Below are positions 1 to 19,049 of a stretch of DNA of 64,000 bases, in pieces. The DNA is from Candidatus Dojkabacteria bacterium (GTDB taxonomy: Bacteria; Patescibacteriota; Dojkabacteria; SC72; JAFGCJ01): the NCBI GenBank assembly GCA_016932785.1, contig JAFGCJ010000001.1, positions 10,909-74,908 on the forward strand. Direction: 5' to 3'. Numbering within the stretch: the first letter of the stretch is position 1; every line of letters begins with the position of its first letter. The notes beneath the pieces are model-generated. The model did not search any database, had not been told where the DNA came from, and worked only from the letters and a program-made list of their open reading frames with translations. A program made the translations under genes and the position numbers.

Positions 1-176
1 TTTGATACAAGATTTGCTGTGTCTACGATCTTCTGGTCTCCAGTATAGAACGGATGACACTTTGAGCATAGCTCTGTAGTGATGTTGTCTGTAGTAGATC
101 CTGTAACGAAAGTGTTGCCACAGGAGCATGTGACCGTTACATTGTGATTGTACTTTGGATGTATCTTTGCTTTCAT
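1..176 (-). CDS. rpmE: 50S ribosomal protein L31 (C-terminus runs off the window start)
   Basis: Manual reverse-complement translation from the ATG at 176-174 gives [59 protein letters not shown]. This is the classic L31 pattern (IHPKY, C-x-C-G, CSxCHPFYTG). The ORF is not in the supplied track because it is truncated by the window edge. Confidence 0.9.
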
Positions 177-335: not shown

Positions 336-363
336 TTGACATATACCCCGCGGGGTATATAAT
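336..363 (+). promoter_or_regulatory. Sigma70-like promoter upstream of the CsoR-family gene
   Basis: TTGACA at 336-341, a 16-nt spacer, then TATAAT at 358-363. The spacer and -10 element are occupied by a perfect palindrome. Confidence 0.6.
341..360. promoter_or_regulatory. Perfect 20-bp palindrome ATATACCCCG/CGGGGTATAT, a candidate CsoR-family operator
   Basis: Read directly: atataccccgcggggtatat equals its own reverse complement. AT-flanked C/G-tract inverted repeats are the known operator type for the CsoR/RcnR family. The site sits between the -35 and -10 elements, 89 nt upstream of the repressor ATG. Confidence 0.6.
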
Positions 364-448
364 CACGGGTAGATTTAAGTATATTTAATGGTCGATGATT
401 GACCATTACTTGTGTTTTCGACTATTTAAATTAAGTTTTTGTTGTTTT

Positions 449-676
449 ATGCCGAAAAAAGGGAAATCTTCTCTTGAAGATAGACTACATAGGATAGAGG
501 GGCAGATACGTGGTGTCGAGTCTATGGTAGAGGGAGAATCTGATCTTAGTAAAGTGATTGTTCAGCTTCAGGCTGTTATATCAGCCTTGGAAAGTGTAAA
601 ATTGGAAATTGTGAAGAGGAAGATCAAGACCAGTGTTGAGGATCAAGTTCTTGGAGCTTTGGAGCTTCTCAAGTAA
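449..676 (+). CDS. CsoR/RcnR/FrmR-family (DUF156) transcriptional repressor lacking the canonical Cys/His sensing residues
   Basis: The segment LEDRLHRIEGQIRGVESMVE...VIVQLQAVISALESV matches the family signature RLxRIEGQxRG...Q..A...AL. I moved the start to the ATG at 449 (MPKKGKSS), because the first 18 codons of the tracked ORF look like 5' leader. The protein contains no Cys, and its only His is in LHRIEGQ. Confidence 0.8.
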   Translation: MPKKGKSSLEDRLHRIEGQIRGVESMVEGESDLSKVIVQLQAVISALESVKLEIVKRKIKTSVEDQVLGALELLK

Positions 677-696: not shown

Positions 697-1413
697 ATGT
701 CTCCAAGTAAGAAGAATCGTAGTGATTCAGCGGAATCGCATAAAGCCTGCTCGGGCAAGAAAGAAAAGAAATCAAAAAAATCTAAGAAGTCTAATGTATT
801 TGCCAAAGTTTCATTAGCTGTATTTTCTATAATGGGTGTGGTAGTTCTTATAATGCCTTTTATGCCAAATATTATTTTTTGGCTTAGAGACCTTATGGGT
901 AATGTTGAATATGATCCCCAGGAAGTTAGGGCCAGGATTCAGGGTGAGGGTGGACGGGGGGATTCTGAAGATGGTTTTCAAAATACGAGAATTCTTATTC
1001 CGGAGATCGGACTTAATGCTCCTGTGGTTGAAGGTGAGGACGAGAGTGTAATGGACCAAGGTGCCTGGCACAGGCCGGGAACAGGGAATCCTATTGATGG
1101 GGGAAATACCGTTATTACAGGGCATAGATTTAGATATTTGCCTCCGAATAATTTGACATTTTACCATCTTGATAAGGTTGAGAAGGGTGATGAAGTTATT
1201 CTTTTTTGGGATGGAGTTGAGTTTGATTATATAGTTACTGAAACTTTTGTTGTGGATCCGGATAGGACTGATATCGAGGGGAATACTGTTGAACCCAAGC
1301 TTACGTTGTATACCTGTACGCCTCTTTGGACTGCGCAGAAAAGGCTTGTTGTAATAGCAGAGCCGGTCAATGATGAAGGAGATTTGGAGGAGATCGAAAT
1401 TGATGGTGTTTAG
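697..1413 (+). CDS. Sortase-family transpeptidase with an N-terminal membrane anchor
   Basis: N-terminal K-rich region plus a TM segment (VSLAVFSIMGVVVLIMPF). Catalytic pattern VITGHRFRY ... LTLYTCTP ... KRLVV gives the His/Cys/Arg triad. The ATG at 697 is preferred over the TTG at 685. The gene starts about 20 nt after the CsoR-like stop. Confidence 0.8.
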   Translation: MSPSKKNRSDSAESHKACSGKKEKKSKKSKKSNVFAKVSLAVFSIMGVVVLIMPFMPNIIFWLRDLMGNVEYDPQEVRARIQGEGGRGDSEDGFQNTRILIPEIGLNAPVVEGEDESVMDQGAWHRPGTGNPIDGGNTVITGHRFRYLPPNNLTFYHLDKVEKGDEVILFWDGVEFDYIVTETFVVDPDRTDIEGNTVEPKLTLYTCTPLWTAQKRLVVIAEPVNDEGDLEEIEIDGV

Positions 1414-1525: not shown

Positions 1526-2188
1526 ATGGTAATGGAATTGACATATTATGGTTTAAGCTGTTTCAGGATAAAATCAGGATCTGCTTGTTTAGTAACAGAT
1601 CCTTTCAATATAAGGGGTCTTGGGATCAGTATTCCTAATCTGGAGGCTGATATGGTTCTCTATACTGGAGATCCTGAAAAACTTGGAGACTGCAGTAGTA
1701 AGTTGAAGACTTCCGAGGCACGGGCTCAGTCGGGTCAGTCATATTTCGAGGTGGCTGAACCTGGAGAGTATGAGGTTGGTGGTATTTTCGTCAGGGTTTA
1801 CAGTGACTCTTCGGTCTCTGTTATAACGAGTGAGAACGTGAATGTTTGCTACTTGGGAATGATTTCTGGTCATGCCCCTTCGATTGATGAGATTGAGGAT
1901 GTTGGGAATATAGACTATCTCATTGTGCCAGTGGGTAACGGGGTGAGCTTTATTGACTGGAAGAATCTGGATAAGGTTATCAAAGATATTGATCCTGCTG
2001 TTGTAATTCCGTCTTGTTACAAACTGGATGGGTTGAAAGGAGACTTCTCGGATTTGAAGAAAGCTGAGGAATTTCTAAACGAATTTGGTTTTGGAGCTGT
2101 AGAGCCTGAGAAGAAACTGAGTCTTGTACCAGTCAGTCGCAATGAGGACTATCAGATGAAAGCGGTTGTACTTGAGAAGAGAGGCTAG
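1526..2188 (+). CDS. Metallo-beta-lactamase-fold hydrolase-like protein (UPF0173-like)
   Basis: The N-terminus MELTYYGLSCFRIKSG..CLVTDPF resembles the MBL-fold family that begins ITWLGHSxF....ilIDPF. The size is about 220 aa. The metal-binding His motif appears degenerate. Confidence 0.5.
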   Translation: MVMELTYYGLSCFRIKSGSACLVTDPFNIRGLGISIPNLEADMVLYTGDPEKLGDCSSKLKTSEARAQSGQSYFEVAEPGEYEVGGIFVRVYSDSSVSVITSENVNVCYLGMISGHAPSIDEIEDVGNIDYLIVPVGNGVSFIDWKNLDKVIKDIDPAVVIPSCYKLDGLKGDFSDLKKAEEFLNEFGFGAVEPEKKLSLVPVSRNEDYQMKAVVLEKRG

Positions 2189-2334: not shown

Positions 2335-3666
2335 ATGGCAAATGCAAACGTTCCACCTCAAAATGTCGATGCAGAGAAATCCGTTCTAGGTTCAATTCTC
2401 ATGGGAAAAGATGCCCTTATTAAAGTGGCAGAATTTCTTTTACCGGAGCATTTCTATGATCCAAAGCATCGAGATATTTATGATGCTACTATGGAGCTTT
2501 TTGACGAAGGCCTTCCTGTTGATATTGTGACTCTAGCTGATAAGCTAAAGAGCAAGAAGAAACTTAGAAGAATTGGAGGGAGATCATATCTGACTGAATT
2601 GGTTGAGAATGTTCCGACGGCGGCACATGCAGAAGATTATGGGCAAATTGTTAAAGCTCTGAGTACTCGTCGGAGTCTGATTTCTGCAGCTTCGAAAATA
2701 AATGGTGTAGCATTCGATGAAGAAAGAGATATTGCTGATATTCTGGATGAGTGTGAGCAGGAGTTGTTTTCAATTTCTCAGGCAAGCCTTCGTGAGAAAT
2801 TTATTCATATACGTGAGCTCCTCAAGGATGCCTATGAGCGTGCGGAAACTATTGATCAGAAAAAAGACAAATTGACCGGAGTTCCAAGTGGATTTAAGGT
2901 ACTTGATAATATTTTAGGTGGGTTCCAGCCTTCGGATATGGTAGTGCTTGCGGCACGCCCATCCGTTGGTAAAACTGCCCTTGCTTTGGATATAGCCCGC
3001 CATGCTTCGGTAGTCGAGAAGAAGAAGATTGCCTTCTTTTCACTCGAAATGTCTGATATGCAGCTTATGGATCGTATGCTTGGAATGCAGGCGAGGGTCC
3101 CTTTCTGGGATATGAAAATGGGGAAACTTAAGGATGAGGCATTTGAGAGAATAGCTGATGCTATGGGACAACTGGCTGAGGCTGAAATTTTTATCGATGA
3201 TAAGCCTGGGCAAAGTGTTATGGAGGTCCGGACCAAGGCCCGTAGATTGCAGCTGGAACAGGGCGTTGATTTGGTAGTCGTTGACTATATGCAGCTGATG
3301 CACTCTCGCAATCTTGAGAATCGTGTCCAGGAGGTATCTGAGATATCTATGGGCATGAAGAATCTGGCACGTGAATTAAAGGTGCCGGTGCTTGTTCTGT
3401 CACAGCTGTCGCGTGCAGTTGAACAGAGAGCTGACAGAATACCTCAGCTTAGTGATCTTCGTGAGAGCGGCAGTATTGAGCAGGATGCCGATGTTGTAGT
3501 CTTTTTGCACAGGGAGGAACAATATAATCCTGACACGGATCGGAAAGGGATTGCGGATTTGATTATATCTAAGCACAGAAACGGTCCAACGGGGAGGTAC
3601 GAACTTGCGTTTGTTAAGGAGTTGGGTAGCTTTAGGAATTTAGAGAAGAAGAGGAAAGAGGAGTAG
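2335..3666 (+). CDS. dnaB: Replicative DNA helicase DnaB
   Basis: PPQNVDAEKSVLGSIL (DnaB N-terminus), GFQPSDMVVLAARPSVGKTALAL (Walker A), VVVDYMQLM (Walker B) and SGSIEQDADVVVFLHRE. Confidence 0.95.
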   Translation: MANANVPPQNVDAEKSVLGSILMGKDALIKVAEFLLPEHFYDPKHRDIYDATMELFDEGLPVDIVTLADKLKSKKKLRRIGGRSYLTELVENVPTAAHAEDYGQIVKALSTRRSLISAASKINGVAFDEERDIADILDECEQELFSISQASLREKFIHIRELLKDAYERAETIDQKKDKLTGVPSGFKVLDNILGGFQPSDMVVLAARPSVGKTALALDIARHASVVEKKKIAFFSLEMSDMQLMDRMLGMQARVPFWDMKMGKLKDEAFERIADAMGQLAEAEIFIDDKPGQSVMEVRTKARRLQLEQGVDLVVVDYMQLMHSRNLENRVQEVSEISMGMKNLARELKVPVLVLSQLSRAVEQRADRIPQLSDLRESGSIEQDADVVVFLHREEQYNPDTDRKGIADLIISKHRNGPTGRYELAFVKELGSFRNLEKKRKEE

Positions 3667-3722: not shown

Positions 3723-6059
3723 TTGATTTTGGGGTACAATAAAGCCCATATTGTTTTACTAAGATGTAATCAGATTAAAACCGTGTCAGCTTCAGTTGAT
3801 GGTTCAGATCTGCCCGGTGTCTCTCAGGATGGTCATGTATTATCTGATGTTCTAGGTCCTGTCGGACCTCATCCCGATTCACTTCCCGGCGAAATTTTTG
3901 TATCTATTGAACAGCGCAGAGATTCATCCCCGGAAGCAATCTTTGCTGCTAGGGTAGATCTTCTTAAGGCCCTGGAGCCTATGGGTGTATCCGGTTTTGG
4001 TACAGAAGAAGAAGGTAGAGATTTTCTGGTGGAGGTTTTTGATGGAACCCTTGAAATGCTCAGATGCTGGCAGGACAGATTAGACGAATCGGCAGTGCTT
4101 GAGTTTCATAGGTGTGCTATCTCTATTTTCCCTGAATCAGAACTACCTCTAAGGATAGCAGAGTGGATGAAGGGCTTTTCGAGGATACATGCTTTGATAG
4201 AAACAGCAGGTGCCCAGCAAAATCCTGCACTTATGGCTAGGGTGCACCGTGAAATTATATTTGAATATGCCGTGAGGGCTCAGAGGTGTCCAAATTTGTT
4301 GTGGCCTCTTGAGCCGTCGATATCTAGGAGGGATGAACAGTGTATGGGGTTCAATAGAGTATTAGAACACCTAGCCCGGACGGTAGTTGAAAGAATGCCG
4401 TACTATGCTACATTTATGGCGCTTCCGGCCATAGAGGAAATAAATGATGTTGATATGAGAAGTCGAACTATTGTTGCATTGGTTGAAAGGTTAAGAAGAA
4501 GAAACATTGGGAGTAGTGAGCCTGCGGAAAAGCTGGCTCTGTTTGAATTAAGAAATTTTTTACTTGCGAAACTTTTTTCTGGTGAGGATGGAACAGAGTC
4601 AGCAGATTCTCGTGCTGCAATTGCCTCATTTGCCGTTGCTGCTTTAGAGGATAGGGGTCATTCAATGCCGTCGGCATGGGTTTCCCGATACCAGAGGGAA
4701 TATAAAAGTCTTGCGGATAGTGGAAAAAGAGCTGATCGGATTAGGGCACTAGCCGATATTGGGTGGATATGGCCGGGCTCGGATACTGCCTTAGGATATG
4801 CGACTAGACTTTGGGAATCTGGGGTTTTTAGTGATAAATGGAAGAGAGTAGAGCTTGCTATGTCGGTAGTAGATGCCGGAATAAGCATCGGTCTCGTAAG
4901 AAACCCTGTTTATCTTATGGGTGATTTATTGAAAAAAGCCAGAAGGTGGGAATACAGAGGTGGGGTGGGTCCGCGCGCTGAAGCAGTTGACAGGGTGGCT
5001 GAAAGGTTTTCTCTGACTTGTGCGTTACTGGTGAGATCTCAGGCCGGTCTGATACAAGATAGGGATCTTTCCCAGAGAGTGCTGCGTGATGAAGATGATT
5101 CAATGGAGCTCTCTTATAAGGTGCTTCATCGTCTTTCAACCCGTATTAAAGGCTTTGCTCGGGAGGGTATTATGATGGATCAGGCAAGAATGAATCTGGC
5201 AACCTCTGCCGCATGGCTTGGAGATAGAAAAATATTTGAGGAGGCTCTTGAGAGTGTTACGGAGCCTGACGTGATACTTCCGTATATTCCCGGGATTATT
5301 GAGGCGTGGGCCTGTAGAGGTGAGTGGGAAACGGCAGTAAAGATTTATGAGATGTGGTTCGAGGATATTGAGCCGAGTGTAGTAGCGGAAATTAGCGATT
5401 ACAGCAGAATAGAACTGCAGGCAAGAAGCACGATGCTTTATGTTAGAAGTCTTTTTGGGGCTAGTTGTGCACGCGAGGAGGGAGATGTCCGTCCGGAAAA
5501 TACTGTGGTTAAAGAATTATGGTTGGATCCTGAGAAAGAAAGTGCCATGGCTGATATTGCGGGTCTGATAGAAGCCGAAATTGACTTTTGGCTGGCCAGG
5601 CTAGAAGGTACTTTGCCTGAAGGGGTACAGCCTCGGGGAGGATATTTTACCCCTAACAATACTAGTGTAGACAATAGCGCACTTAAAAAATACCTTGTGT
5701 ATAAAACAGCTCTGGATGTGGACGGCATTGAATTTGAAGGTCAAGCAGCAAGGGCTGTTATTATTTTCACGCAAAGGGCACGGTCCAAAGGTCCTATCTG
5801 GCAAAAGGATGCAAGTAGACGAGCTATAACCTGGGCCAGAGTGTCAATTTTCATTGAAAAACCTGAAGCAGAATCAGAGGAGGGTTCCAAGGATCCGGAT
5901 TTGGAGTTTAGGCTTTCTTCTTTGGCTAATATCTCTGATATTTATGAAGGCAGACAGAGAAATGGCAAACCCTTTCCCGAAGTTGCACTTAAGATGCGTA
6001 CGGCTCTAACGGATATCTTTGATTCTATTAGAGCTAGATCAAATATAGCTCTAAAATAA
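3723..6059 (+). CDS. Large hypothetical protein (about 760-778 aa), predicted helical; paralogous C-terminal segment shared with the next ORF
   Basis: Long uninterrupted ORF with visibly higher G+C than dnaB. The start is uncertain (TTG at 3723 or GTG at 3783). I recognise no domain. Confidence 0.6.
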   Translation: MILGYNKAHIVLLRCNQIKTVSASVDGSDLPGVSQDGHVLSDVLGPVGPHPDSLPGEIFVSIEQRRDSSPEAIFAARVDLLKALEPMGVSGFGTEEEGRDFLVEVFDGTLEMLRCWQDRLDESAVLEFHRCAISIFPESELPLRIAEWMKGFSRIHALIETAGAQQNPALMARVHREIIFEYAVRAQRCPNLLWPLEPSISRRDEQCMGFNRVLEHLARTVVERMPYYATFMALPAIEEINDVDMRSRTIVALVERLRRRNIGSSEPAEKLALFELRNFLLAKLFSGEDGTESADSRAAIASFAVAALEDRGHSMPSAWVSRYQREYKSLADSGKRADRIRALADIGWIWPGSDTALGYATRLWESGVFSDKWKRVELAMSVVDAGISIGLVRNPVYLMGDLLKKARRWEYRGGVGPRAEAVDRVAERFSLTCALLVRSQAGLIQDRDLSQRVLRDEDDSMELSYKVLHRLSTRIKGFAREGIMMDQARMNLATSAAWLGDRKIFEEALESVTEPDVILPYIPGIIEAWACRGEWETAVKIYEMWFEDIEPSVVAEISDYSRIELQARSTMLYVRSLFGASCAREEGDVRPENTVVKELWLDPEKESAMADIAGLIEAEIDFWLARLEGTLPEGVQPRGGYFTPNNTSVDNSALKKYLVYKTALDVDGIEFEGQAARAVIIFTQRARSKGPIWQKDASRRAITWARVSIFIEKPEAESEEGSKDPDLEFRLSSLANISDIYEGRQRNGKPFPEVALKMRTALTDIFDSIRARSNIALK

Positions 6060-6114
6060 AGAAAACTACAGGATAGATACCCTAGTTGGGAGTAATTTTT
6101 AGAAGAGAAAAACC

Positions 6115-7875
6115 ATGAGTGCAGGAATGACGGCTGGCGAAACAGGTGGCGGAGAGGCTACTGCCTCCTTGGCTCCTCTTAGTGATGAGATTGATGGATT
6201 AATGGCAGATGAGGGTAGGAATGGTACTGAAAATCGGCATGTTACTTTAGAATCACTTGCGGCTGACTTGGAAAGTCTTGACGACCTTGGACCCGAGGAA
6301 AGGATTCGGGCCAGAATTGCCTTGATTGATGCCATGAGTTTTGATGATTCCTTAACACAGGAAAGGGTAAGATGTCCTGGGGTTGACGTTCGAGGCCTAT
6401 TTGAAGGTGCTATTGATTGCCTTGATGGGATGGAGCCATTTCCTGGGAGATATCGATTTGGGAATGAGCTTCATGATCAGGCCTTGAGGTTGTATCGCGC
6501 TGGTGCTCTTAGAGATATTCCCGACCAGATATTAGAGCATCTTAGTGAGTTTCATAGGATAGAGCGGCTTGAGGAAACAGCACGAAGAATTGGTCGAGGT
6601 GGTGCACTGGTGAGAGCTATGGAGGAGCTGGCAAGTGTGGAGCAGAGGATGATTATGGGGGCTGCTGCTGCTATACATAGTGATGAGGAAATTCGACGTC
6701 AGATGGATGTGATTGAACAACTGTATTCTGGGTTGGCAGTTGCGGCTACTGATAGTCTTGATCTTAACTATGCTCCGTGGGCTATTCCTTTTCTAGCTAA
6801 AGTTAGAGATCCTAGAGTAGCTATACCTACAGCCATACAGGTGACTAAGAATTTGCTTAGGTATGAGGGATCACCGTTGGCATCGTGGGTAGCGGGACGT
6901 CTTTTATTTCAAGTGAGTCAATCTATTAATTGGGCAGGCGATGATAAAGCACGACCGAGAAGTATACAATATGATGATATTGCGTCTGTGGCCTCACTTT
7001 CCCAGCGTATAGACTATTCAGCTGTAGTCCCTTATCGTGAAATGATCGATAAGGCGGCACTAATATTGAAGGAACCTCGCGATGGAATGCCTAATGTTAC
7101 AGTAATTGCTAATGAAGTTAGATATGCTGTAGCTACAGGACAACTAGATTTGCTGGATGGAATATCGGAAAAAATAATTGGTACGAGAATGACTCATCGG
7201 GATAGGGTAGACCTTACTTCTTGGGCCTCATCTGAATTAATGAAGGCAGGCCATTTTCATGAAATAATTGCATTATGTCATGACCTTATCGGTAGAAACC
7301 CTAGGCGTCTTTTACGTTCTGAAAATCCAAAGATATGGACCTTGGATGTTGTTTGTGAGATTGCTTGTTCTTTTTCCAGAGATTGGACTAAGGCATGTCT
7401 TGGTCTTACACGTGATAGGGTGCACGCAGCGTTGGTTAGGGAGTATAGAGAAGGTGTTCCGAGAAGTTTTCTCGATGGAGTATTAAAGCAGGTTAGAGAT
7501 CTGGAAATACATGGATCTGCTGAAGATGCTGATGAACGGCGCTATACTATGATGCAGTGTAGGCATTTTCTTGCTAAGACGGCAGCATGGGTGGGCGAGG
7601 AGGATTTACTGCTTGGATTGGTTGAGTATAGTGGAAGTGATCCTTTGTTTTGGGAGTCTGTTCCAGAGATAATCTATGCTTGTGAGTGTAGAAGAGACCA
7701 TGGTTTGGCCATTAGGATTTATTCGATTGTCTTTGGTCGATTTTGGAGGGGCGATGCGGATAGTTCTGATGGGTTTAGGCTTTCTGAATTTCTTTCGCGG
7801 TGCGGTATAGCAAAGGCCCAAATGGAATGGGAGGAAGCTTTGGCAAGAGAGAGGGGACCGTACGGTATTCTCTAG
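6115..7875 (+). CDS. Large hypothetical protein (586 aa), a partial paralog of the 3723-6059 product
   Basis: LAKTAAWVGEEDLLLGLVEYSGSDPLFWESVPEIIYACECRRDHGLAIRIYSIVF aligns by eye with LATSAAWLGDRKIFEEALESVTEPDVILPYIPGIIEAWACRGEWETAVKIYEMWF of the upstream ORF. I recognise no domain. Confidence 0.6.
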   Translation: MSAGMTAGETGGGEATASLAPLSDEIDGLMADEGRNGTENRHVTLESLAADLESLDDLGPEERIRARIALIDAMSFDDSLTQERVRCPGVDVRGLFEGAIDCLDGMEPFPGRYRFGNELHDQALRLYRAGALRDIPDQILEHLSEFHRIERLEETARRIGRGGALVRAMEELASVEQRMIMGAAAAIHSDEEIRRQMDVIEQLYSGLAVAATDSLDLNYAPWAIPFLAKVRDPRVAIPTAIQVTKNLLRYEGSPLASWVAGRLLFQVSQSINWAGDDKARPRSIQYDDIASVASLSQRIDYSAVVPYREMIDKAALILKEPRDGMPNVTVIANEVRYAVATGQLDLLDGISEKIIGTRMTHRDRVDLTSWASSELMKAGHFHEIIALCHDLIGRNPRRLLRSENPKIWTLDVVCEIACSFSRDWTKACLGLTRDRVHAALVREYREGVPRSFLDGVLKQVRDLEIHGSAEDADERRYTMMQCRHFLAKTAAWVGEEDLLLGLVEYSGSDPLFWESVPEIIYACECRRDHGLAIRIYSIVFGRFWRGDADSSDGFRLSEFLSRCGIAKAQMEWEEALARERGPYGIL

Positions 7876-7966
7876 GTGTAGATGAGAGAGACGTATGTTT
7901 CTTCGCTGTTGACTTTATCACTTCAGATTTATAATATGAAAACAGACTAATCTGACGATATTATCC

Positions 7967-10900
7967 ATGTCTGGGGATTCACTTTATTCATCTGGAGTTT
8001 CAGCAGAAAAATATTCTGGTAATCTTGACCGTGGGGATAGTACTTCCAGTGTGTCTAGCGAAGAGTCTGAAGAAGGTTATGAGGCATTGGTTGCTGGTAA
8101 TGTTGATCAGCAACGGGTCGCTGCTATGACAAGACTTCATGAAGGTTTTGTTTCTCAATTGGAGGCTCTCGATGAGCTTCTGGTTGATCCTTTTGCTGAA
8201 ATTGTATCGAGGGGAATGTTTCGTGAACCCTTTGATGCAATGATGGCAAACTTTCGGGGACGTCAATTATCCTGTATCCAATTTCTTGCCCGTGAGGGGG
8301 TGACGTTAGAAAACTTGGCTCAGATAGTCCTGGGTGGTGTCTTGGTTCATGAGTCTAAAGCATATTCCCGTGAAGAAGATGTGTTGTCCATGATAGGAGA
8401 GAATTTTCTTACTCAAATGTCTGGATTGTATGGATCTAGTAAAGCGGAGATTCCTGGAGACCTGGAGACAGATGTATTTTTGATTGGTGGTGGTGCGGCA
8501 TTGGGGGTGATTCTGGATATTCCGGAGCCGACCGGCCGTGCAGACATGGAATCTATAGAATATCTTGTTAATACTTTTGGGATTAGGATCTTTAATGATG
8601 AAGGTGAGGAAATACCGATGGAGGAGGACGGTGAGATGACTCTAGAACAGGCTCAAACGGTATGGAGAACGCTTCAGTCATGGAGGAGTCTGACGGTAGA
8701 TCGTTCCATGCTTCCCACTGAGTTTAAGGAAACTTTTCCTGGAGATGTTGTTGTATTCTTTGGTTATCCCGATGAACAATCAGTAAGACATGAGTCAGAG
8801 GAGGTCTTTCATCACTACCTCAGGGATCAAATGGTTTCCTATCTCAAAGAACAGGAATCTACAGCTTTAGTTCCGGATGTGTCATATACTCCTAGGACGA
8901 TATCGGAAATAGTTGGGATGACAGATGAAGACTGTCTTCGTCTATATGGTAGAGGCAGAAGAGAAGTGATAGAGGGTATTAGAGATGCTGATCGTTCAGT
9001 TTTAGCTTGGAGTATTGCTGCTCCGGCGTTATCTGAAATTAGTTCAATTCTGAGTGAGGATGAGGAACTTGTTGAGTTGGAGGGAGTTAGATTTATTGAG
9101 CAGCTTGCCTCTAGAAGTATTGGTTCCTTGGGTATACTTCCTGGGTCTGAGAGAATGGCAGCAATCAATGGCTTATCGAAGGAGGATATAGCGAAAATTC
9201 TTGAGGCATATGTTGAGGCGTATACGTTAGTTCGGGCTGTTCGTGGCAAGGTCTGTGAATTATTGCAGGAGAAAAATCCTAGAGAAGTGGCCAATCTGCT
9301 TCATGCATATTTTGGAAACCCTGTTAATTTTTTGCTTCATGGGGAGCGGGAGGAACTAGGAAGAGCCGATGGAAGTGACAGTTATTCTCGTTTTGAGGCT
9401 CAGAGGAGAAGAAATCTTGACGCGCTGACTACTTCTTTGGCAGTTTTGAAAAGGGACCAAATTCCGGAAGAAGGTCCAGAGGTTGTTAGAGGAGTTCTCG
9501 GGCTGGAAGATTTCTCAGAAGGTGAGGATGAGGGTGCTAAACCTGAGCAATATTATGTGGATACGAGGTTTGAGAGTCGATTTATTCAAGATAAAGGGAC
9601 TATTCCTGCGTGTGGTGCGGTGGTTGAGTTTGATCTTATCCCTTCGCATGGAACGACTGTGGCTATTACAATAGGAGAGGCTGGTGCTGGCGGTGGGATG
9701 AGTTCCTCGAGGAAAGCGGCTCTTGCAGCAGAGGTGAGTGGTGCGCCAGCAGGATTCAGAAGGTACGTAATTTTAGGTAAGGGCGATAGGAGGACAGATA
9801 TCTATATGGATACCGACGGACAGGTTGTTAGGTACTATAGATCTAATGCAGGCGCTGCTGACCAGAGTCTTAGTGAGCTAGAATTTCAACAAGCGTGTTC
9901 GACACATCCCGAATCCAATATGTTCTTCCTAAAAGAGGCTACGGTTGCTCTTCCTGGTGGTGAGGCGTTTGCACAGTCGTTGATAGATCTGTCTGATCTT
10001 CCGTTTACCTTCGTTCCAAAAAGTGTCTTCGAGAGACTTGATGCCGAAGGAAGAACTGAGCTTCTAGATAAAAATATCTTTCAGTTGAGTATTGCCGTTC
10101 AGCGTTTATTGCAAAACCTTGATATCCATAATGCATCTTCGTTTCTAGATAATAGGTTTACCATTGGAAGGGTAGAGCTCTCACTTCAGGAGTATATTAG
10201 AAGGATTGTTGTTTCTGCTTATAGAGCTGACTATTCTAGAGCAACGCGGTATTTTGGAACAGCTTCCAATGGTCTTGCACAAAGGCTTCATATTAGGTCT
10301 GCTGATTTAGATCAATACAGTTCTGTTGTCTATGATGGTGCTTCTGAGGAGCCTTTTGCAGTTCTTCGCAATGCTAATCAAAGTTTAGTTGATGGGGTGG
10401 AGCAGTTTGTGCTTCAGGTACTTGAGCCTGAGTTGCAGGCCGCAATTAGGCGTGCAAGTAGAGAGGCTGCTGTGGGTAGAGTTGTTGCTGGTACCGGGAT
10501 GGCGGAAAGTGTTGTGCCGGTAGCTGCGTCTACGTTGAATCATGTAGGATTGGGAGATAAGGGTGGATCGAGACGAATACTGGTGACATTGTTTCCATGG
10601 ATAGAGAATATGGTTGGCGATCTAGCGGACTTTCGTGATCAGTTGAAGGCTTCTCCCTCGAGAGATCAGTTGCTGAAGATAGGATTAAGTCTTTGTAATG
10701 CGCTGGGAGGAGTTGCACATGAGGGACTGAACGTTGTCCATCGAGATGTGAAACCACAGAATGTCTTGATTGTAGGATCAAATATGGAAAAGGTTTTGCT
10801 TGGAGACTTTGGGATTTCTGTTCATAAGGGTTCGACTATGACAGTATCTGATCTGGACTCAAGTTCAAGTGCCGGCAGGACAGCACTGATGGGGACTCCT

Positions 10901-15701: not shown

Positions 15702-16119
15702 AGTCACGAATAAGAAGAGCGCAGTACTGATTGTAGTTATTTTGATACTGATTGATCAGATTACCAAAGTTGTCGCGAGAGGATATGACTTTGGTGCACT
15801 TAACACTGGAGTTTCTTTGGGCCTATTGAGCGACGTTGGAGTTGTGGTCTTACTCGTAATTCAGGTTTTCATAGTTGCGGCCCTCCTTCTTATTTTGATA
15901 GGAAGAGATTTGGACCGGTATTTGAGGTTGGGTTTGTGTATCATTATTTCTGGTGGACTAAGTAATATAATAACAAGGTTGATGTGGGGTGGGGTATGGG
16001 ACTGGATTGATTTAAAGCTTATACCTATTTTTAATCTTGCTGATATATATATTGATATTGGATTATTAATAATTTTGTACAGGTCTTTTGGTGGCAGATT
16101 CGGAGAAAAAAATAAATGA
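15676..16119 (+). CDS. lspA: Lipoprotein signal peptidase (signal peptidase II)
   Basis: LIDQITK, NTGVSLGLL, and FNLADIYIDIGLLIIL (the FNxAD catalytic Asp motif). Length 147 aa with 4 TM segments. Confidence 0.85.
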   Translation: MKKLHLANKVTNKKSAVLIVVILILIDQITKVVARGYDFGALNTGVSLGLLSDVGVVVLLVIQVFIVAALLLILIGRDLDRYLRLGLCIIISGGLSNIITRLMWGGVWDWIDLKLIPIFNLADIYIDIGLLIILYRSFGGRFGEKNK

Positions 16120-16126
16120 ATTGTTC

Positions 16127-17434
16127 ATGAAAGATGGTTACGAAGTTACCAGTTCAGCTCGTGGGTATAGAGTTGATAGGCTGCTTTGTCAGGTCTTTGA
16201 TGATTGGTCAAGAAAGGATGTATCGCTTCTGATAAAGAATTCCGGAGTCAAGGTGAATGGAGAAAGCGTCAGGAAAGGCTCTAAGCGTCTCAAAAACAGG
16301 GACATAGTCCTAATTGATCAGAAGGTGTTTGAGAAGGTCAAAAAAACAGTTGAGAAGGCTAGGGACGCAAAGGAGTTCACGTATTATGGTGATGAAAAAA
16401 CTATTGAGCCTGAAAATCTTCCTCTCGAGATTGTATATGAAGAAAATGAATTCATTGTGGTAAACAAGCCTGCAGGTATGGTAGTTCATCCTGCTTACAA
16501 AAATCCATCAGGCACGCTTGTGAACGCAGTTGCGGGATACTTTAAGAGAAATAAAATTCAGCTACCCAGACGAGTAGGGCTTGTTCATAGGATAGATAAA
16601 GATGTCAGTGGGCTTCTTATAATAGCCAAGGATGACCATTCCCTCTCAGCTCTGAGTTCTCAATTTAGCGGTGTGGGAATTACAGGCCCTGGTATTGATG
16701 TATCCATGAAAGCCAGGAAATTGTATTGGGCTGTGATAAAGCCGGAATCAAGTTCTCAACTCGAATCAATAGGGCTGTTGAAGAAAGGTGCAAAGATGGA
16801 CACAATTACAGTGGAAGGATATATCAGAAGATCTCGTGCGGACAGGCGAGTTAGTGAATTCAATATAGGAAGGCCATTTTTGGATGCTAGTATCAAAGGG
16901 TCACGCTCTAGAGCTAATGATGCTAATGGAGCGGCGAATAAGGGCCGATACTGTCTTAGTTTCATGAAACTGGTGTCGAAGCTACCCAAGGGAGAATGGC
17001 TTATTGAAGTTGAAATTATCACCGGAAGAACTCATCAGATTCGATCACAACTTTCTAGCTTGGGGATTCCTGTCGTTGGTGACAAAATGTATGGTGGTAA
17101 AGAAAACCGACACAATGATATTTCTATGCATGGCATTGCGCTGAGAAGCGTTGCTCTTGACATTATACCCCCCGGGGTATATAAAGAATGTATAAAGGAG
17201 AGGAAATTAGCCATGCTCCTTGCAGGAAAAGACAAGAAAAGCGTTGATGATGGTGCTATTAATGGAAAAGCGGAAAAAAAGATACATGAAAAGCCTTATT
17301 GTAATGGGAGAATTGTATCACAAAGAGCTACAAGGGGCTTAGAATGCGACAAATTTATTAAGAAATACAAAAGTATTGACCGAGAAGGTATAGAAATTGA
17401 TAGAATCTGTATTGCGAATTTTGTGATACCTTGA
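16127..17434 (+). CDS. RluA/RluD-family 23S rRNA pseudouridine synthase with an internal insertion and a ~90-aa C-terminal extension
   Basis: S4-like N-terminus (RVDRLL...SRKDVSLLIKNSGVKVNG), HRIDKDVSGLLIIAK (catalytic Asp) and GRTHQIRSQLSSLGIPVVGDKMYG. The ATG at 16127 is preferred. Confidence 0.8.
   Translation: MKDGYEVTSSARGYRVDRLLCQVFDDWSRKDVSLLIKNSGVKVNGESVRKGSKRLKNRDIVLIDQKVFEKVKKTVEKARDAKEFTYYGDEKTIEPENLPLEIVYEENEFIVVNKPAGMVVHPAYKNPSGTLVNAVAGYFKRNKIQLPRRVGLVHRIDKDVSGLLIIAKDDHSLSALSSQFSGVGITGPGIDVSMKARKLYWAVIKPESSSQLESIGLLKKGAKMDTITVEGYIRRSRADRRVSEFNIGRPFLDASIKGSRSRANDANGAANKGRYCLSFMKLVSKLPKGEWLIEVEIITGRTHQIRSQLSSLGIPVVGDKMYGGKENRHNDISMHGIALRSVALDIIPPGVYKECIKERKLAMLLAGKDKKSVDDGAINGKAEKKIHEKPYCNGRIVSQRATRGLECDKFIKKYKSIDREGIEIDRICIANFVIP
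17164..17181. promoter_or_regulatory. Second CsoR-operator-like palindrome TATACCCC-CC-GGGGTATA, inside the rluD-like ORF
   Basis: The arms TATACCCC/GGGGTATA and the 2-nt spacer match the 341-360 palindrome. The site is followed directly by TATAAA. Confidence 0.4.
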
Positions 17435-17834
17435 TAGAGTAGAGTATATGGAGGGTAGCTCTTTAGAAAGAACTATAATGATATTGACGAATAAAGGTAT
17501 TTAAAGCCTATAAATGACAAATCTTATGTTTGAACAAGAATTCCTTGGCTATTCGTAACAAAATACCTGATGTGGAGTTGAGATATTTCCAATCTGGTGA
17601 AGGTAATAAAAACGGCTTTGTGGCAATCTTTAAATAGTTCACAAAATTTGATCATAAATTTTACATATCATCGGATCCGAGTGTTCATTAGATGGTTTCA
17701 GATTTAATAACCAAGATGACTCACAATAGACTAGTGCCTTGTTAGTGAAGAATTTGTTTTATGTAAAAGTAACACAATTGTAACATGAGGTCTTTCGATT
17801 TACTATTTGACCTATATTTTTTCTATTATATTCT

Positions 17835-19049
17835 GTGCCCCTTCTAAAAAGATCAAAAAAACAAAAGAAGAGATTTCGGACCGAAAGGACTCTAAAAGCA
17901 CGACTTTTAGACAAACCAAAATACCTTTTGATTCTAAGGATATTGATTGTTGTTGTTCTTATAACATCTATTTCATCTGTTGTTTATTGGTTTTATCATC
18001 GGGTATCAGATCTGAATGATCTGGAATTTTCTCAGACTCTTGAGGATTCCTATGATTTTGATTATGAGCCTCTTGGGTACAATAAAAACGAAGTCTTCAC
18101 CTTATTGATTTTGGTTGATCTTGAGGATGATGGAAGAACAAAGGTTGATGATTTTGTTGTTATTCAAATAGATTCAAATTCACAAGAAGCTTTTGTTTTT
18201 TCTTTTCACCCGGATATTTATTTCTACCTTTATGAGTATAGCGGCTCTTATGAAAGTGTTGAAATATCAAGGGTTAGAGATCTTCCTGTTGTTGGGGATC
18301 TTCATGATCCTCCCAGACCGGTTTCGTATACGTATCATCAGCTGCAAGAGTTTTTGGCCATTAGGTTTAATGGATATATCCTAATTAAGGGCGATCTTTC
18401 AAAGGACTTCAACAGATTTGGGAATGCCGAGGCTTTAGGTGATACATTGAAGTCAGATATGTCCTATGAAGCCTGGGCAAAGGAAAATAATGAGTATTGG
18501 ATAAATTTTATAAATACTCTTTCAATCTTTGGGGCTTTGGCCAATAAGGATAAAATACCAGAACTTGAAAGTAATTTAGAAGTAACTGACCTGTATGGAT
18601 TTGTTAGAGGATTTAAGGATATTTCTCTAAGTGACGTAGAATCTGTTTATCTGAAGACTGAAGACCTTACTGAGGTAATAGATGAGAGGGGAGACCAGGT
18701 GACTTTTTTATCGGAGACCAAGCTTGACGAAGCGTTGGGTAATCATGTTCGAGATATCGAAATGGAGCGGGAACAGGCCAGAGTCGAAGTATTTAACGGG
18801 AGTGGGGTTGGGGGGCTTGGAGCTCGATACAAAAGGTGGCTTGAACATCTTGGAGCTGATGTCATAAGAGTTGGAAATGCTTCTGGGGACTGGGATAGAT
18901 CTGTTATATATGTTACCAAGAGTGGGGAGTTTGATTATACTATGGATCGGATTCAGAGTTTGTGGGAGAAGGATGTTGAGATAAGGGAGGGTCGCCCGGA
19001 TTTTGTTACTACAGGGGATATAATCGTGATTTTAGGTGCAGATTTTTAG
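17835..19049 (+). CDS. LytR/CpsA/Psr (LCP)-like envelope protein with a LytR_C C-terminal domain
   Basis: N-terminal basic region plus a TM segment. C-terminal ARVEVFNGSGVGGLGARYKRWLEHLGADVIRVGNASG...VIYV is typical of LytR_C. The central region is only weakly LCP-like. GTG start. Confidence 0.5.
   Translation: MPLLKRSKKQKKRFRTERTLKARLLDKPKYLLILRILIVVVLITSISSVVYWFYHRVSDLNDLEFSQTLEDSYDFDYEPLGYNKNEVFTLLILVDLEDDGRTKVDDFVVIQIDSNSQEAFVFSFHPDIYFYLYEYSGSYESVEISRVRDLPVVGDLHDPPRPVSYTYHQLQEFLAIRFNGYILIKGDLSKDFNRFGNAEALGDTLKSDMSYEAWAKENNEYWINFINTLSIFGALANKDKIPELESNLEVTDLYGFVRGFKDISLSDVESVYLKTEDLTEVIDERGDQVTFLSETKLDEALGNHVRDIEMEREQARVEVFNGSGVGGLGARYKRWLEHLGADVIRVGNASGDWDRSVIYVTKSGEFDYTMDRIQSLWEKDVEIREGRPDFVTTGDIIVILGADF

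What the first reader, a model, noticed from the sequence alone, without database searches (positions are those of the whole stretch)
341..676. CsoR-family repressor with no Cys/His sensing residues, paired with a perfect operator palindrome and followed by a sortase gene
In CsoR, RcnR, FrmR and CstR, signal sensing uses conserved Cys/His positions (the C-H-C triad in Cu(I)-CsoR). By eye, alignment to the DRYC...H...C pattern gives L, K and S at those positions, and the protein has no Cys at all. The 20-bp palindrome ATATACCCCGCGGGGTATAT overlaps its own promoter, consistent with autoregulation. The next gene downstream is a sortase rather than a metal exporter. This suggests a family member re-purposed for a non-metal, non-thiol signal that controls envelope protein anchoring.
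Basis: partly seen in the sequence, partly recalled or inferred. Interest (0 to 1): 0.55.

Follow-up and report, generated by a model that had tools for sequence, protein, structure and literature searches.

The report
Cysteine-less CsoR-type repressor in Dojkabacteria
A tiny DNA-binding repressor of the copper-sensor (CsoR) family keeps its classic DNA target and DNA-contact residues but has lost every residue the family uses to sense a signal. It heads a conserved sortase / hydrolase / replication-helicase gene cluster across a phylum of uncultured ultra-small bacteria.

Summary
ORF 449-676 (75 aa) matches PF02583 (E 1.8e-17). Against solved CsoR structures, the Cys/His/Cys sensing positions align with L33/K58/S62. 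The protein has no Cys.

The 20-nt perfect palindrome 341-360 fills the spacer of a 12/12 sigma-70 promoter. It is almost the published Streptomyces CsoR operator consensus. A sortase follows.

New points:
- The window is from Candidatus Dojkabacteria (CPR).
- 65 of 66 close homologues lack Cys/His at all three sensing positions, and those positions vary freely. The DNA-binding RLXR motif and Gln39 are kept.
- An ATACC-N6/7-GGTAT box lies upstream of this gene in 18 related loci, between promoter hexamers wherever I read the flanks.
- The order csoR-like, sortase, MBL-fold hydrolase, dnaB is conserved.
- A second, near-identical box (17163-17182) lies in the 3' end of rluD. That region carries boxes in other genomes, in two reading frames.

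Best reading: a CsoR-scaffold autorepressor without the canonical sensor site, probably acting as signal-independent negative feedback. An unknown non-canonical input is not excluded. The link to "envelope anchoring" is only adjacency. I found no paper describing this clade. I rate it a new variant of a known kind, of moderate interest.

The parts
336..341 (+). -35 hexamer TTGACA of the csoR-like promoter
   Evidence: The promoter scan gives TTGACA-16-TATAAT, 12 of 12 matches, the best site in 1-2400.
341..360 (.). Operator: perfect 20-nt palindrome ATATACCCCGCGGGGTATAT (TAC-N8-GTA dyad around a G/C tract)
   Evidence: Sequence. There are 2 matches in the window against 0.00 expected. It is one of two perfect 20-nt palindromes in the window, against 0.1 expected. 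It differs from the streptomycete CsoR type 2 consensus ATATACCCCTNAGGGGTATAT only in the centre (PMC3902906). An equivalent ATACC-N6/7-GGTAT box lies upstream of the orthologous gene in 18 related loci.
358..363 (+). -10 hexamer TATAAT, overlapping the right arm of the operator
364..448 (+). 5' leader; contains a terminator-like hairpin at 386-408 followed by a T-run
   Evidence: The hairpin is listed. It is not visible in the leaders of the closest relatives L169 and L165, so its role is unknown.
449..676 (+). csoR-like gene, 75 aa, no Cys; RLXR motif = R12-L13-H14-R15; Gln39 invariant; X/Y/Z = L33/K58/S62
   Evidence: PF02583, E 1.8e-17. PDB alignments. 100% identical to an NCBI protein annotated 'metal-sensing transcriptional repressor [Candidatus Dojkabacteria bacterium]'. 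Clade statistics. Start codon supported by relatives. AF2 model pLDDT 92.7. The top 19 Foldseek PDB hits are all CsoR/CstR/InrS/FrmR.
697..1413 (+). Sortase gene, 20 nt after the csoR-like stop; probably co-transcribed
   Evidence: PF04203, E 6.4e-28. No terminator was found between the two genes. A sortase follows the csoR-like gene in all 12 loci of the 75-aa clade that extend far enough.
1526..2188 (+). MBL-fold hydrolase (Lactamase_B_3), a conserved member of the cluster
   Evidence: PF13483, E 3.1e-17. A match to it lies between the csoR-like gene and dnaB in 15 related loci, including the sortase-less L006, L007 and L164. The unassigned ORFs at that position in L170 and L173 gave no match.
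2335..3666 (+). dnaB replicative helicase, last conserved gene of the cluster
   Evidence: ORF. The orthologues carry PF00772/PF03796 and sit 3-130 nt after the MBL gene in relatives. tblastn identity is 54-81%.
17163..17182 (.). Second operator-like box TTATACCCCCCGGGGTATAT (18/20 identical to the first), flanked by TTGACA (17157-17162) and TATAAA (17180-17185)
   Evidence: 0.00 expected. Sequence. It lies in the 3' end of the rluD ORF and reads I-P-P-G-V-Y. Boxes occur in the rluD 3' end in L169, L165, L161 (two), L162 and L173, in two positions and two reading frames. The promoter scan did not call it, because the -10 ends in A.
16088..17434 (+). rluD-like pseudouridine synthase ORF that hosts the second box; its last ~84 codons are a non-conserved tail
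   Evidence: The PF00849 domain ends at residue 324 of 448. The tail 17213-17431 has no homologues. Tails differ in sequence and length among relatives.
17835..19049 (+). LytR_C-domain protein gene, first gene downstream of the second box after a 400-nt non-coding gap; possible target
   Evidence: PF13399, E 9.7e-09. The same gene order occurs in relatives. In L002, L163 and L168 a box lies +336 to +396 nt inside this gene rather than in rluD.

Best explanation
Gene 449-676 encodes a minimal (75 aa) CsoR/RcnR-fold DNA-binding protein of Candidatus Dojkabacteria.

It keeps the family's DNA-recognition apparatus: the RLXR motif on helix 1 and the invariant Gln on helix 2. It has lost the whole W-X-Y-Z sensory site.

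It binds the G/C-tract palindrome ATACC-N6-GGTAT, which sits between the -35 and -10 hexamers of its own consensus promoter. Binding there would occlude RNA polymerase and repress its own transcription unit: csoR-like, sortase and, at least in relatives with 3-40 nt gaps, the MBL-fold hydrolase and dnaB.

A second, near-identical box in the 3' end of rluD (17163-17182) is a further binding site. It would act either as an operator of an internal promoter or as a roadblock ahead of the LytR_C / T4SS-coupling-protein genes.

The former ligand positions are unconstrained, and every conserved residue can be explained by fold or DNA contact. The most likely mode is therefore effector-independent negative feedback, in which the protein's own concentration sets operon expression, rather than metal, thiol or aldehyde sensing.

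Shown: family, fold, absence of ligand residues, operator identity, operator conservation and position, synteny.
Inferred: actual binding, repression, operon extent, absence of an effector.
For: - Family and fold: PF02583 at 63.9 bits. The AF2 model has pLDDT 92.7, and its 19 best PDB matches are all CsoR-family chains, with rmsd 0.4-3.4 A (mostly under 2 A) over 49-62 alignment columns.
- DNA-binding determinants: RLXR and Q81 of S. lividans CsoR are required for operator binding (PMC3902906). They correspond to R12-L13-H14-R15 and Q39. Q39 is invariant in 66/66, and the R-x-x-R pattern is present in 65/66.
- Sensor site: X/Y/Z = L33/K58/S62. 65/66 homologues have no Cys or His there, and the positions are highly variable. 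39 of 149 representatives (50% clusters) nearest the clade profile are likewise Cys/His-less.
- Operator: a perfect palindrome inside a 12/12 promoter. It is near-identical to the published CsoR type 2 consensus. A box lies upstream of the orthologue in 18 loci, with invariant ATACC/GGTAT arms and a variable centre.
- Enrichment: strict boxes number 30 in about 0.33 Mb of CPR loci, against about 1 expected.
- Extra evidence for the operator: miscalled N-terminal extensions of distant Cys-less homologues read 'IYPRGYI', 'IPPGVY' and 'IPPWVY', which is the operator translated.
- Synteny: csoR-like, sortase, MBL, dnaB in 12/12 loci of the 75-aa clade.
- Second box: 18/20 identical to the first, 0 expected. 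Boxes in the rluD 3' end occur in two reading frames, which points to DNA-level constraint.
Against: - No binding, repression or transcript data exist for any member.
- Absence of a conserved pocket is negative evidence. An effector could act through the conserved N-terminal MPKKG tail (Pro2 in 42/66, the residue FrmR uses together with Cys35), through lysines, through a partner protein, or through DNA topology.
- The AF2 monomer shows helix 33-74 as one continuous helix, and Pfam matches only profile positions 3-63 of 78. The helix-3 tetramer interface may therefore differ, and stoichiometry on DNA is unknown.
- In the window, 112-nt and 146-nt gaps with promoter-like sites precede the MBL gene and dnaB, so here the autoregulated unit may stop at the sortase.
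- The second box's -10 lacks the conserved final T.
- The position-B box overlaps the RluA-family 'HP..G' peptide motif, so part of its conservation could be at the protein level.
- The 73-aa subclade (RVSR instead of RLHR) has no such box upstream.
Confidence: 0.6

Rival explanations
1. The protein is still a signal-responsive repressor, re-tuned to an unknown non-metal, non-thiol input sensed outside the canonical pocket or via a partner. Candidates are the always-adjacent MBL-fold protein, modification of the N-terminal Pro/Lys tail, or DNA supercoiling acting on the A-form-prone G tract. It would switch sortase and envelope genes on demand.
For: - The gene has been retained across a phylum with very few regulators, next to sortase and MBL genes.
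- The N-terminus MPKKG is conserved, and D11, S45, E48, K51 and K56 are not obviously needed for the fold.
- Both boxes in the window sit upstream of envelope-related genes: the sortase, and a LytR_C-domain protein.
- All characterised family members are effector-controlled (PMC11672702).
Against: - No conserved Cys, His, Met or aromatic cluster is available beyond H14. H14 is the X of RLXR and is S/N/R/K in some members.
- The X, Y and Z positions are unconstrained.
- More distant Cys-less relatives lack the sortase but keep dnaB, usually with the MBL-fold gene.
- The LytR_C protein matches only the C-terminal domain, not the LCP catalytic domain.
Confidence: 0.3
2. The protein acts as a multi-site, nucleoid-associated or roadblock-type DNA-binding protein rather than a dedicated operon repressor. 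Its own promoter would be only one of many sites.
For: - Strict boxes are strongly enriched, and many are intragenic. L173 has 6 in 12 kb against 0.02 expected.
- Further boxes lie inside rluD, the LytR_C gene and other genes.
Against: - In the 64-kb window there are only two good boxes.
- At least one intragenic box in L173 coincides with a conserved oxidase peptide motif (G-Q-Y-T-H-P-G-I-G, read directly from the sequence). Some boxes may therefore be by-products of coding.
- Box position inside the csoR-like promoter is precise and conserved.
Confidence: 0.07
3. The protein is a decaying relic of a copper or persulfide sensor that lost its ligands and has no remaining function.
For: The sensory residues have been lost. 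No efflux or detoxification gene is nearby.
Against: - The ORF is intact at a fixed length of 75 aa in dozens of divergent genomes.
- Q39, A42 and S45 are invariant, and R12, R15, G18 and Q19 nearly so.
- The operator arms and the synteny are conserved across lineages that share only about 30-50% protein identity.
Confidence: 0.03

Closest known systems
Cu(I)-sensing CsoR (S. lividans 4adz, G. thermodenitrificans 4m1p, M. tuberculosis 2hh7), fingerprint x-C-H-C
   Same: - Pfam family and the helix 1 / helix 2 hairpin fold.
- The RLXR motif and the conserved Gln.
- A type 2 operator with a TAC/GTA dyad flanking a G/C tract: ATATACCCC..GGGGTATAT against the consensus ATATACCCCTNAGGGGTATAT.
- The operator overlaps the promoter, giving autoregulation.

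   Different: - No Cys/His/Cys: L33/K58/S62 instead.
- The second-shell Tyr before the X position is Asp or Glu here.
- 75 aa rather than about 90-130, with a helix 3 region that is short or not separate.
- The dyad spacing is N8 (N9 in some relatives), against N9.
- The neighbours are sortase, MBL and dnaB, not copZA.
CstR persulfide sensors (S. pneumoniae 7mq1-3), fingerprint x-C-(N)-C
   Same: These are the best PDB sequence match (E 7e-07). They are similarly short, at 85 aa.
   Different: CstR needs the attacking N-terminal Cys and usually a resolving Cys. Neither is present here.
FrmR formaldehyde sensor (5lbm, 5lcy), fingerprint P-C-H-x
   Same: Pro2 follows the initiator Met, as in FrmR (42 of 66 clade members). 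Same family and fold.
   Different: The FrmR mechanism is a Pro2-Cys35 methylene bridge (PMC5146963; PMC11672702). The Cys is absent here, Pro2 is Ala in 16 of 66, and there is no frmA-like neighbour.
RcnR / InrS Ni/Co sensors, fingerprint H-C-H-H/C
   Same: Same family and fold. InrS 5fmn is a PDB hit at E 3.7e-05.
   Different: None of the four ligand positions is kept: K3, L33, K58, S62. The operator is type 2, not the RcnR type 1 TACT-G6-N-AGTA. The type 1 form is from my own knowledge of the family, not checked here.

Membership tests
CsoR/RcnR superfamily (PF02583, DUF156) | Sequence match to the family profile above the curated threshold | tested here: met
   63.9 bits against a cut-off of 22.8, E 1.8e-17, profile positions 3-63 of 78.
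CsoR/RcnR superfamily (PF02583, DUF156) | All-alpha helix 1 / helix 2 antiparallel hairpin, as in solved structures | tested here: met
   AF2 pLDDT 92.7, with helices 9-28 and 33-74. Foldseek PDB ranks 1-19 are all CsoR/CstR/InrS/FrmR. This rests on a predicted model.
CsoR/RcnR superfamily (PF02583, DUF156) | RLXR motif on helix 1 and a conserved Gln on helix 2, both needed for operator binding | tested here: met
   R12-L13-H14-R15 and Q39 align with the RLRR motif and Q81 of S. lividans CsoR (role of these residues from PMC3902906). Q39 is present in 66/66.
CsoR/RcnR superfamily (PF02583, DUF156) | G/C-tract pseudopalindromic operator overlapping the regulated promoter | tested here: met
   341-360 lies within the 336-363 promoter. 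A box is present upstream of the orthologue in 18 loci. Physical binding was not tested.
CsoR/RcnR superfamily (PF02583, DUF156) | Cys at position X, described as 'absolutely conserved' (PMC5146963) | tested here: not met
   L33 sits at position X. 65/66 clade members have no Cys there. This is a feature of the sensory function, not of the fold.
CsoR/RcnR superfamily (PF02583, DUF156) | Dimer-of-dimers tetramer built through helix 3 | not testable with these tools
   Only a monomer model was possible. It shows no separate helix 3, and Pfam coverage stops at profile position 63 of 78.
CsoR/RcnR superfamily (PF02583, DUF156) | Effector-induced release from DNA | not testable with these tools
   This needs EMSA or ITC with and without candidate effectors.
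Cu(I)-CsoR subfamily (x-C-H-C) | Cys-His-Cys Cu(I) triad, plus second-shell Tyr and Glu | tested here: not met
   L33/K58/S62, with D32 in place of the Tyr that precedes X.
Cu(I)-CsoR subfamily (x-C-H-C) | Adjacent copper efflux or chaperone genes (copA, copZ) | tested here: not met
   No DKTGT or GMxCxxC motif occurs in any frame of the 64 kb. The neighbours are sortase, MBL and dnaB.
CstR (x-C-x-C) | Reactive dithiol pair | tested here: not met
   The protein has zero Cys.
FrmR (P-C-H-x) | N-terminal Pro2 together with Cys35 | tested here: not met
   Pro2 is present, but position X is Leu.
RcnR/InrS (H-C-H-H/C) | His3, Cys35, His60 and His64 ligands | tested here: not met
   K3, L33, K58 and S62.

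The most novel reading that the evidence does not exclude
A ligand-blind CsoR scaffold is a phylum-wide housekeeping regulator in Dojkabacteria. By pure negative feedback it would set the dosage of an operon joining a sortase, an MBL-fold hydrolase and the replicative helicase DnaB. It would also use operators embedded in coding DNA (the rluD 3' end and the LytR_C 5' part, in different reading frames) as internal operators or roadblocks. That would make it the first CsoR-family member whose function is not stress sensing, and a rare defined cis-regulatory circuit for CPR bacteria.
Probability: 0.3. Interest if true: 0.65.

Novelty: new variant of a known kind. Interest (0 to 1): 0.5.

Why it matters
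Every characterised CsoR/RcnR-family protein senses its signal through the position-X cysteine, which the literature calls absolutely conserved (PMC5146963). Copper, nickel/cobalt, persulfide and formaldehyde sensors all work this way.

This clade keeps the DNA-reading half of the protein and its classic operator but discards the sensing half. That makes it a natural "DNA-binding-only" version of the scaffold. It is useful for separating DNA recognition from allostery in this family.

It is also one of the few transcription circuits in candidate-phyla-radiation bacteria that can be written down from sequence: promoter, operator, regulator and conserved target genes, including dnaB.

Databases currently label these proteins "metal-sensing/metal-sensitive transcriptional repressor" or "FrmR family". 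That label is very probably wrong for this clade.

Tried and rejected
- Alternative start ATG395, which adds a Cys-rich 18-aa extension. Rejected: 12 of 14 relatives have no in-frame start upstream before an in-frame stop, and nearly all homologues are called at 75 aa.
- Small ORF 17213-17431 downstream of the second box, treated as a separate gene with an apparent AAGGAGAGG ribosome-binding site. It has no homologues and only a sub-threshold zinc-finger hit. It is in frame with rluD, and the equivalent tails in relatives are not conserved. I treat it as the unconstrained C-terminal tail of rluD. The apparent ribosome-binding site is just the codons K-E-R.
- Rfam scan of the whole window. Only one tRNA was found, and nothing in the leader or in the rluD-LytR_C gap.
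- Alignment of the 340-470 nt rluD-LytR_C gaps. No conserved block appeared apart from a short GTAAC-N6-GTAAC repeat.
- Metagenome scan with the clade profile. I switched to exact-protein look-ups.
- A Cys-less member outside the CPR: P0102 is labelled Flavobacterium alvei. Its contigs have Dojkabacteria-type synteny (L31, PDZ proteases, dnaB, DZR, rluD), so it is probably mis-binned.
- Copper or other metal genes in the window. No P-type ATPase or CopZ signature was found.
- Literature on a Cys-less clade. Nothing was found. The supplement of the SSN paper, which would show logos of the uncharacterised clusters 6-9, is not held.
- A box in the 73-aa subclade (RVSR motif). None is present. Only an unrelated TAGCAC-N3-GTGCTA palindrome lies upstream.
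Full report
**Observation check**

ATATACCCCGCGGGGTATAT at 341-360 is a perfect 20-nt palindrome. With up to three mismatches it has two matches in the window, against 0.00 expected in 100 dinucleotide-preserving shuffles. The window holds only two perfect 20-nt palindromes, against 0.1 expected.

The palindrome fills the spacer of TTGACA(336-341)-16 nt-TATAAT(358-363). This is a 12/12 consensus promoter and the best site in the first 2.4 kb.

The ORF behind it (449-676, 75 aa) hits Pfam PF02583 "metal-sensitive transcriptional repressor" at E 1.8e-17, 63.9 bits, cut-off 22.8. The next gene (685/697-1413) is a sortase, PF04203, E 6.4e-28.

**Start codon**

The ORF listing extends the ORF to ATG395, which would add MIDHYLCFRLFKLSFCCF, a Cys- and His-containing extension. 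That extension is not real. Nearly all of the 66 homologues are called at 75 aa and begin MPKKG or MAKKG. In 12 of 14 related loci there is no in-frame start upstream of the conserved ATG before an in-frame stop 0-25 codons back. The ligand positions are internal in any case.

**Ligand positions**

In the HMMER alignment to S. lividans CsoR (4adz), the Cu(I) ligands Cys75/His100/Cys104 fall on L33, K58 and S62. These ligands are SEQRES positions 78/103/107. The alignments to G. thermodenitrificans CsoR (4m1p) and S. pneumoniae CstR (7mq1-3) give the same register. The protein has no Cys and one His, H14.

H14 is the X of the RLXR DNA-binding motif (R12-L13-H14-R15), not a sensory residue. Q39 aligns with Q81 of S. 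lividans CsoR. RLXR and Q81 are the residues shown experimentally to be required for operator binding (PMC3902906, read).

An AlphaFold2 model built on the clade alignment is confident (pLDDT 92.7). It has helices at 9-28 and 33-74. Its 19 best Foldseek matches in the PDB are all CsoR, CstR, InrS or FrmR chains, with rmsd 0.4-3.4 A (mostly under 2 A) over 49-62 alignment columns. The model shows no separate helix 3, and Pfam coverage stops at profile position 63 of 78. The tetramer interface may therefore differ, which I could not test.

**The clade**

The window protein is 100% identical to an NCBI entry from Candidatus Dojkabacteria, a CPR/Patescibacteria lineage.

- Of 66 homologues, 65 have no Cys or His at X, Y or Z. 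The exception is the weakest hit, P0066, a canonical x-C-Q-C protein.
- The three positions are not replaced by another conserved set. X is L/T/V/S/E/A/I/P/M, Y is Q/E/S/K/G/R, and Z is S/N/K/Q/A/T.
- By contrast Q39, A42 and S45 are invariant, and R12, R15, G18, Q19, G22, K51 and K75 are nearly so.
- A profile search of 1.84 billion cluster representatives found 7404 family members. Among the best 149, 39 lack Cys/His at all three positions. The rest are mostly C-H-C or C-x-C.
- One Cys-less member is labelled Flavobacterium alvei, but its contigs have Dojkabacteria-type synteny. It is probably mis-binned.

**The operator is conserved and canonical**

The published streptomycete type 2 CsoR consensus is ATATACCCCTNAGGGGTATAT, anchored on a 5'-TAC/GTA-3' dyad (PMC3902906). 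The window site has the same arms and a centre one base shorter (TAC-N8-GTA).

An ATACC-N6/7-GGTAT box lies upstream of the orthologous gene in 18 related loci: L001-L005, L081, L082, L161-L163, L165-L170 and L173. It sits between -35-like and -10-like hexamers wherever I read the flanks. The arms are invariant and the centre varies.

Three distant homologues whose ORFs were miscalled too long read "IYPRGYI", "IPPGVY" and "IPPWVY" in their false N-termini. That is the operator translated.

Strict boxes total 30 in about 0.33 Mb of CPR sequence, against about 1 expected. A 73-aa subclade (RVSR instead of RLHR; L006, L007, L164, L083, L084) has no such box.

**Context**

Gene order is strikingly conserved. 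rpmE, prfA and prmC lie on the minus strand. Then, on the plus strand, come csoR-like, sortase, MBL-fold hydrolase (PF13483) and dnaB. Further downstream come efp (in some genomes), a DZR zinc-ribbon protein, lspA, rluD, a 340-470 nt gap, a LytR_C-domain protein, and a DUF8128/TrwB-like ATPase.

- The sortase follows the regulator in 12 of 12 loci of the 75-aa clade that reach far enough. In L167 it is uncalled but found by tblastn.
- The sortase is absent in the 73-aa subclade and in the more distant L170 and L173. There the regulator still sits beside dnaB, with an ORF in between that matches the MBL-fold gene in L006, L007 and L164 but is unassigned in L170 and L173. In L173 the two are divergently oriented and share one 250-nt intergenic region that carries the box.
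- In several relatives the four genes are separated by 3-40 nt, for example in L002, L162 and L168. That indicates one operon.
- In the window the gaps before the MBL gene and dnaB are 112 and 146 nt and contain promoter-like sites. Here the autoregulated unit may end at the sortase.
- No P-type ATPase or CopZ signature exists anywhere in the window.

**A second operator**

TTATACCCCCCGGGGTATAT at 17163-17182 is 18/20 identical to the first site. It is flanked by TTGACA (17157-17162) and, 17 nt later, TATAAA. The promoter scan does not call it because the -10 ends in A.

It lies inside the 3' end of the rluD ORF and reads I-P-P-G-V-Y. The ORF then runs on for 84 more codons of non-conserved tail.

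Boxes recur in this region in other genomes.

- At the same position and in the same frame: L169, L165, L161 and L162 (peptide I-P/H-P-G/R-V-Y).
- About 15 codons further upstream and in a different frame: L161 (T-T-K-G-I) and L173 (H-T-P-R-G-M).
- In L002, L163 and L168 the box sits instead +336 to +396 nt inside the next gene, the LytR_C gene.

Nine of the 16 non-promoter boxes thus cluster around the rluD / LytR_C junction. Occurrence in two frames argues for DNA-level selection. The position-B box overlaps the RluA-family "HP..G" peptide motif, so part of its conservation may be at the protein level.

What the site controls is unknown. It could be an internal promoter or a roadblock ahead of the LytR_C and TrwB-like genes.

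**Mechanism**

The best-supported account is a CsoR-scaffold repressor. It binds the TAC/GTA-anchored G/C-tract box between -35 and -10 of its own promoter and thereby represses csoR-like, sortase and, at least in relatives, the MBL gene and dnaB. A second site lies near rluD.

Family, fold, missing ligands, operator identity, operator conservation and synteny are shown. Binding, repression and operon extent are inferred.

The former ligand positions drift freely, and the conserved residues are those of the fold and the DNA interface. I therefore favour effector-independent negative feedback, which I put at about 0.45-0.5 on its own. I put the overall repressor statement at about 0.85.

The main rival (0.3) is an unknown input acting elsewhere: the MPKKG N-terminal tail, lysine modification, the always-adjacent MBL-fold protein, or DNA topology. 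A nucleoid- or roadblock-type role (0.07) is suggested by the many intragenic boxes in L173, but the window has only two boxes. A dead relic (0.03) is contradicted by the conservation.

**Comparison with what is known**

Reviews and primary papers describe position-X Cys as "absolutely conserved" (PMC5146963). They list only Cu(I), Ni/Co, persulfide and formaldehyde sensors, all using that Cys (PMC11672702). The 2021 sequence-similarity network of 32,476 PF02583 sequences leaves clusters 6-9 uncharacterised (PMC8643695). Its supplement is not held, so I cannot say whether this clade is among them.

No paper in the library combines CsoR with Patescibacteria, CPR or Dojkabacteria.

The protein passes the fold, profile, DNA-motif and operator criteria of the superfamily. 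It fails the sensory criteria of every characterised subfamily. I file it as a new variant of a known kind.

Databases currently label these proteins "metal-sensing repressor" or "FrmR family regulator". That label is probably wrong for this clade.

**Verdict**

"A new signal controlling envelope anchoring" is not evidenced. The conserved partners include dnaB, and the sensory pocket looks abandoned rather than re-tuned. Interest is 0.5.

Noticed in passing
window 386-408: A terminator-like hairpin (TAATGGTCGATGATTGACCATTA followed by CTTGTGTTTT) sits in the 5' leader between the promoter and ATG449. It is not visible in the shorter leaders of the closest relatives L169 and L165.
   Followed up: partly
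window 28063-28082: This is the only other perfect 20-nt palindrome in the window: GGAGTAGGGGCCCCTACTCC. It has a G/C tract with the dyad in the inverse GTA...TAC orientation, the orientation reported for the M. tuberculosis CsoR site. It lies inside ORF 27055-28428.
   Followed up: no
window 17769-17784; also the rluD-LytR_C gaps of L169, L161, L162 and L163: A short direct repeat GTAAC-N6-GTAAC lies about 50-70 nt upstream of the LytR_C-domain gene. It is the only recognisably conserved element in an otherwise divergent 340-470 nt gap. It may be a site for another regulator or a promoter element.
   Followed up: partly
L164 15321-15324, compared with window 17434-17835: The genome of the box-less 73-aa subclade has essentially no gap (3 nt) between rluD and the LytR_C gene. 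The other genomes examined, whose regulator gene carries the box, have a gap of 340-470 nt there.
   Followed up: no
window 16088-17434: The rluD ORF runs 84 codons past the second box into a tail with no homologues. The apparent Shine-Dalgarno AAGGAGAGG plus ATG17213 are in frame with rluD. The tails in relatives differ in length and sequence.
   Followed up: yes
L173 10728, 10822 and 11337 (also 6701): In this distant relative several perfect ATACC-N6-GGTAT boxes lie inside an amine-oxidase/CrtI-like gene. One coincides with the conserved G-Q-Y-T-H-P-G-I-G peptide. Some intragenic boxes may therefore be by-products of coding.
   Followed up: partly
P0074: A 4853-aa protein matches the 75-aa clade profile in 44 separate stretches (E 9.9e-22). 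It is presumably a giant repetitive helical protein. Not examined.
   Followed up: no
P0078, P0080, P0081, P0085, P0089, P0097, P0103: These proteins of 170-200 aa carry two CsoR domains in tandem, each with Cys at X and Z. They look like fused 'double CsoR' proteins.
   Followed up: no
L006, L007, L083 and L084, upstream of the 73-aa csoR-like gene: A TAGCAC-N3-GTGCTA palindrome, resembling CIRCE half-sites, lies between a divergent Hsp20 gene and the 73-aa csoR-like gene. It is perfect in L006 and imperfect in the other three. The CsoR-type box is absent there.
   Followed up: no
window 3723-12628: Three large ORFs (778, 586 and 1553 aa) with no convincing Pfam match for the first lie between dnaB and efp. 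Relatives have one or two smaller genes there, so this looks like a lineage-specific insertion.
   Followed up: no
window 1-176 (minus strand): The gene divergent from the csoR-like promoter is ribosomal protein L31 (rpmE) of the Cys-containing, zinc-ribbon type (CSCGN...CSKCHPF). Its own promoter-like site (215-187) does not overlap the operator.
   Followed up: partly
P0102 / L170-L172: A protein annotated as from Flavobacterium alvei sits on contigs with Dojkabacteria-type gene order. This is probably contamination or mis-binning in that MAG.
   Followed up: yes
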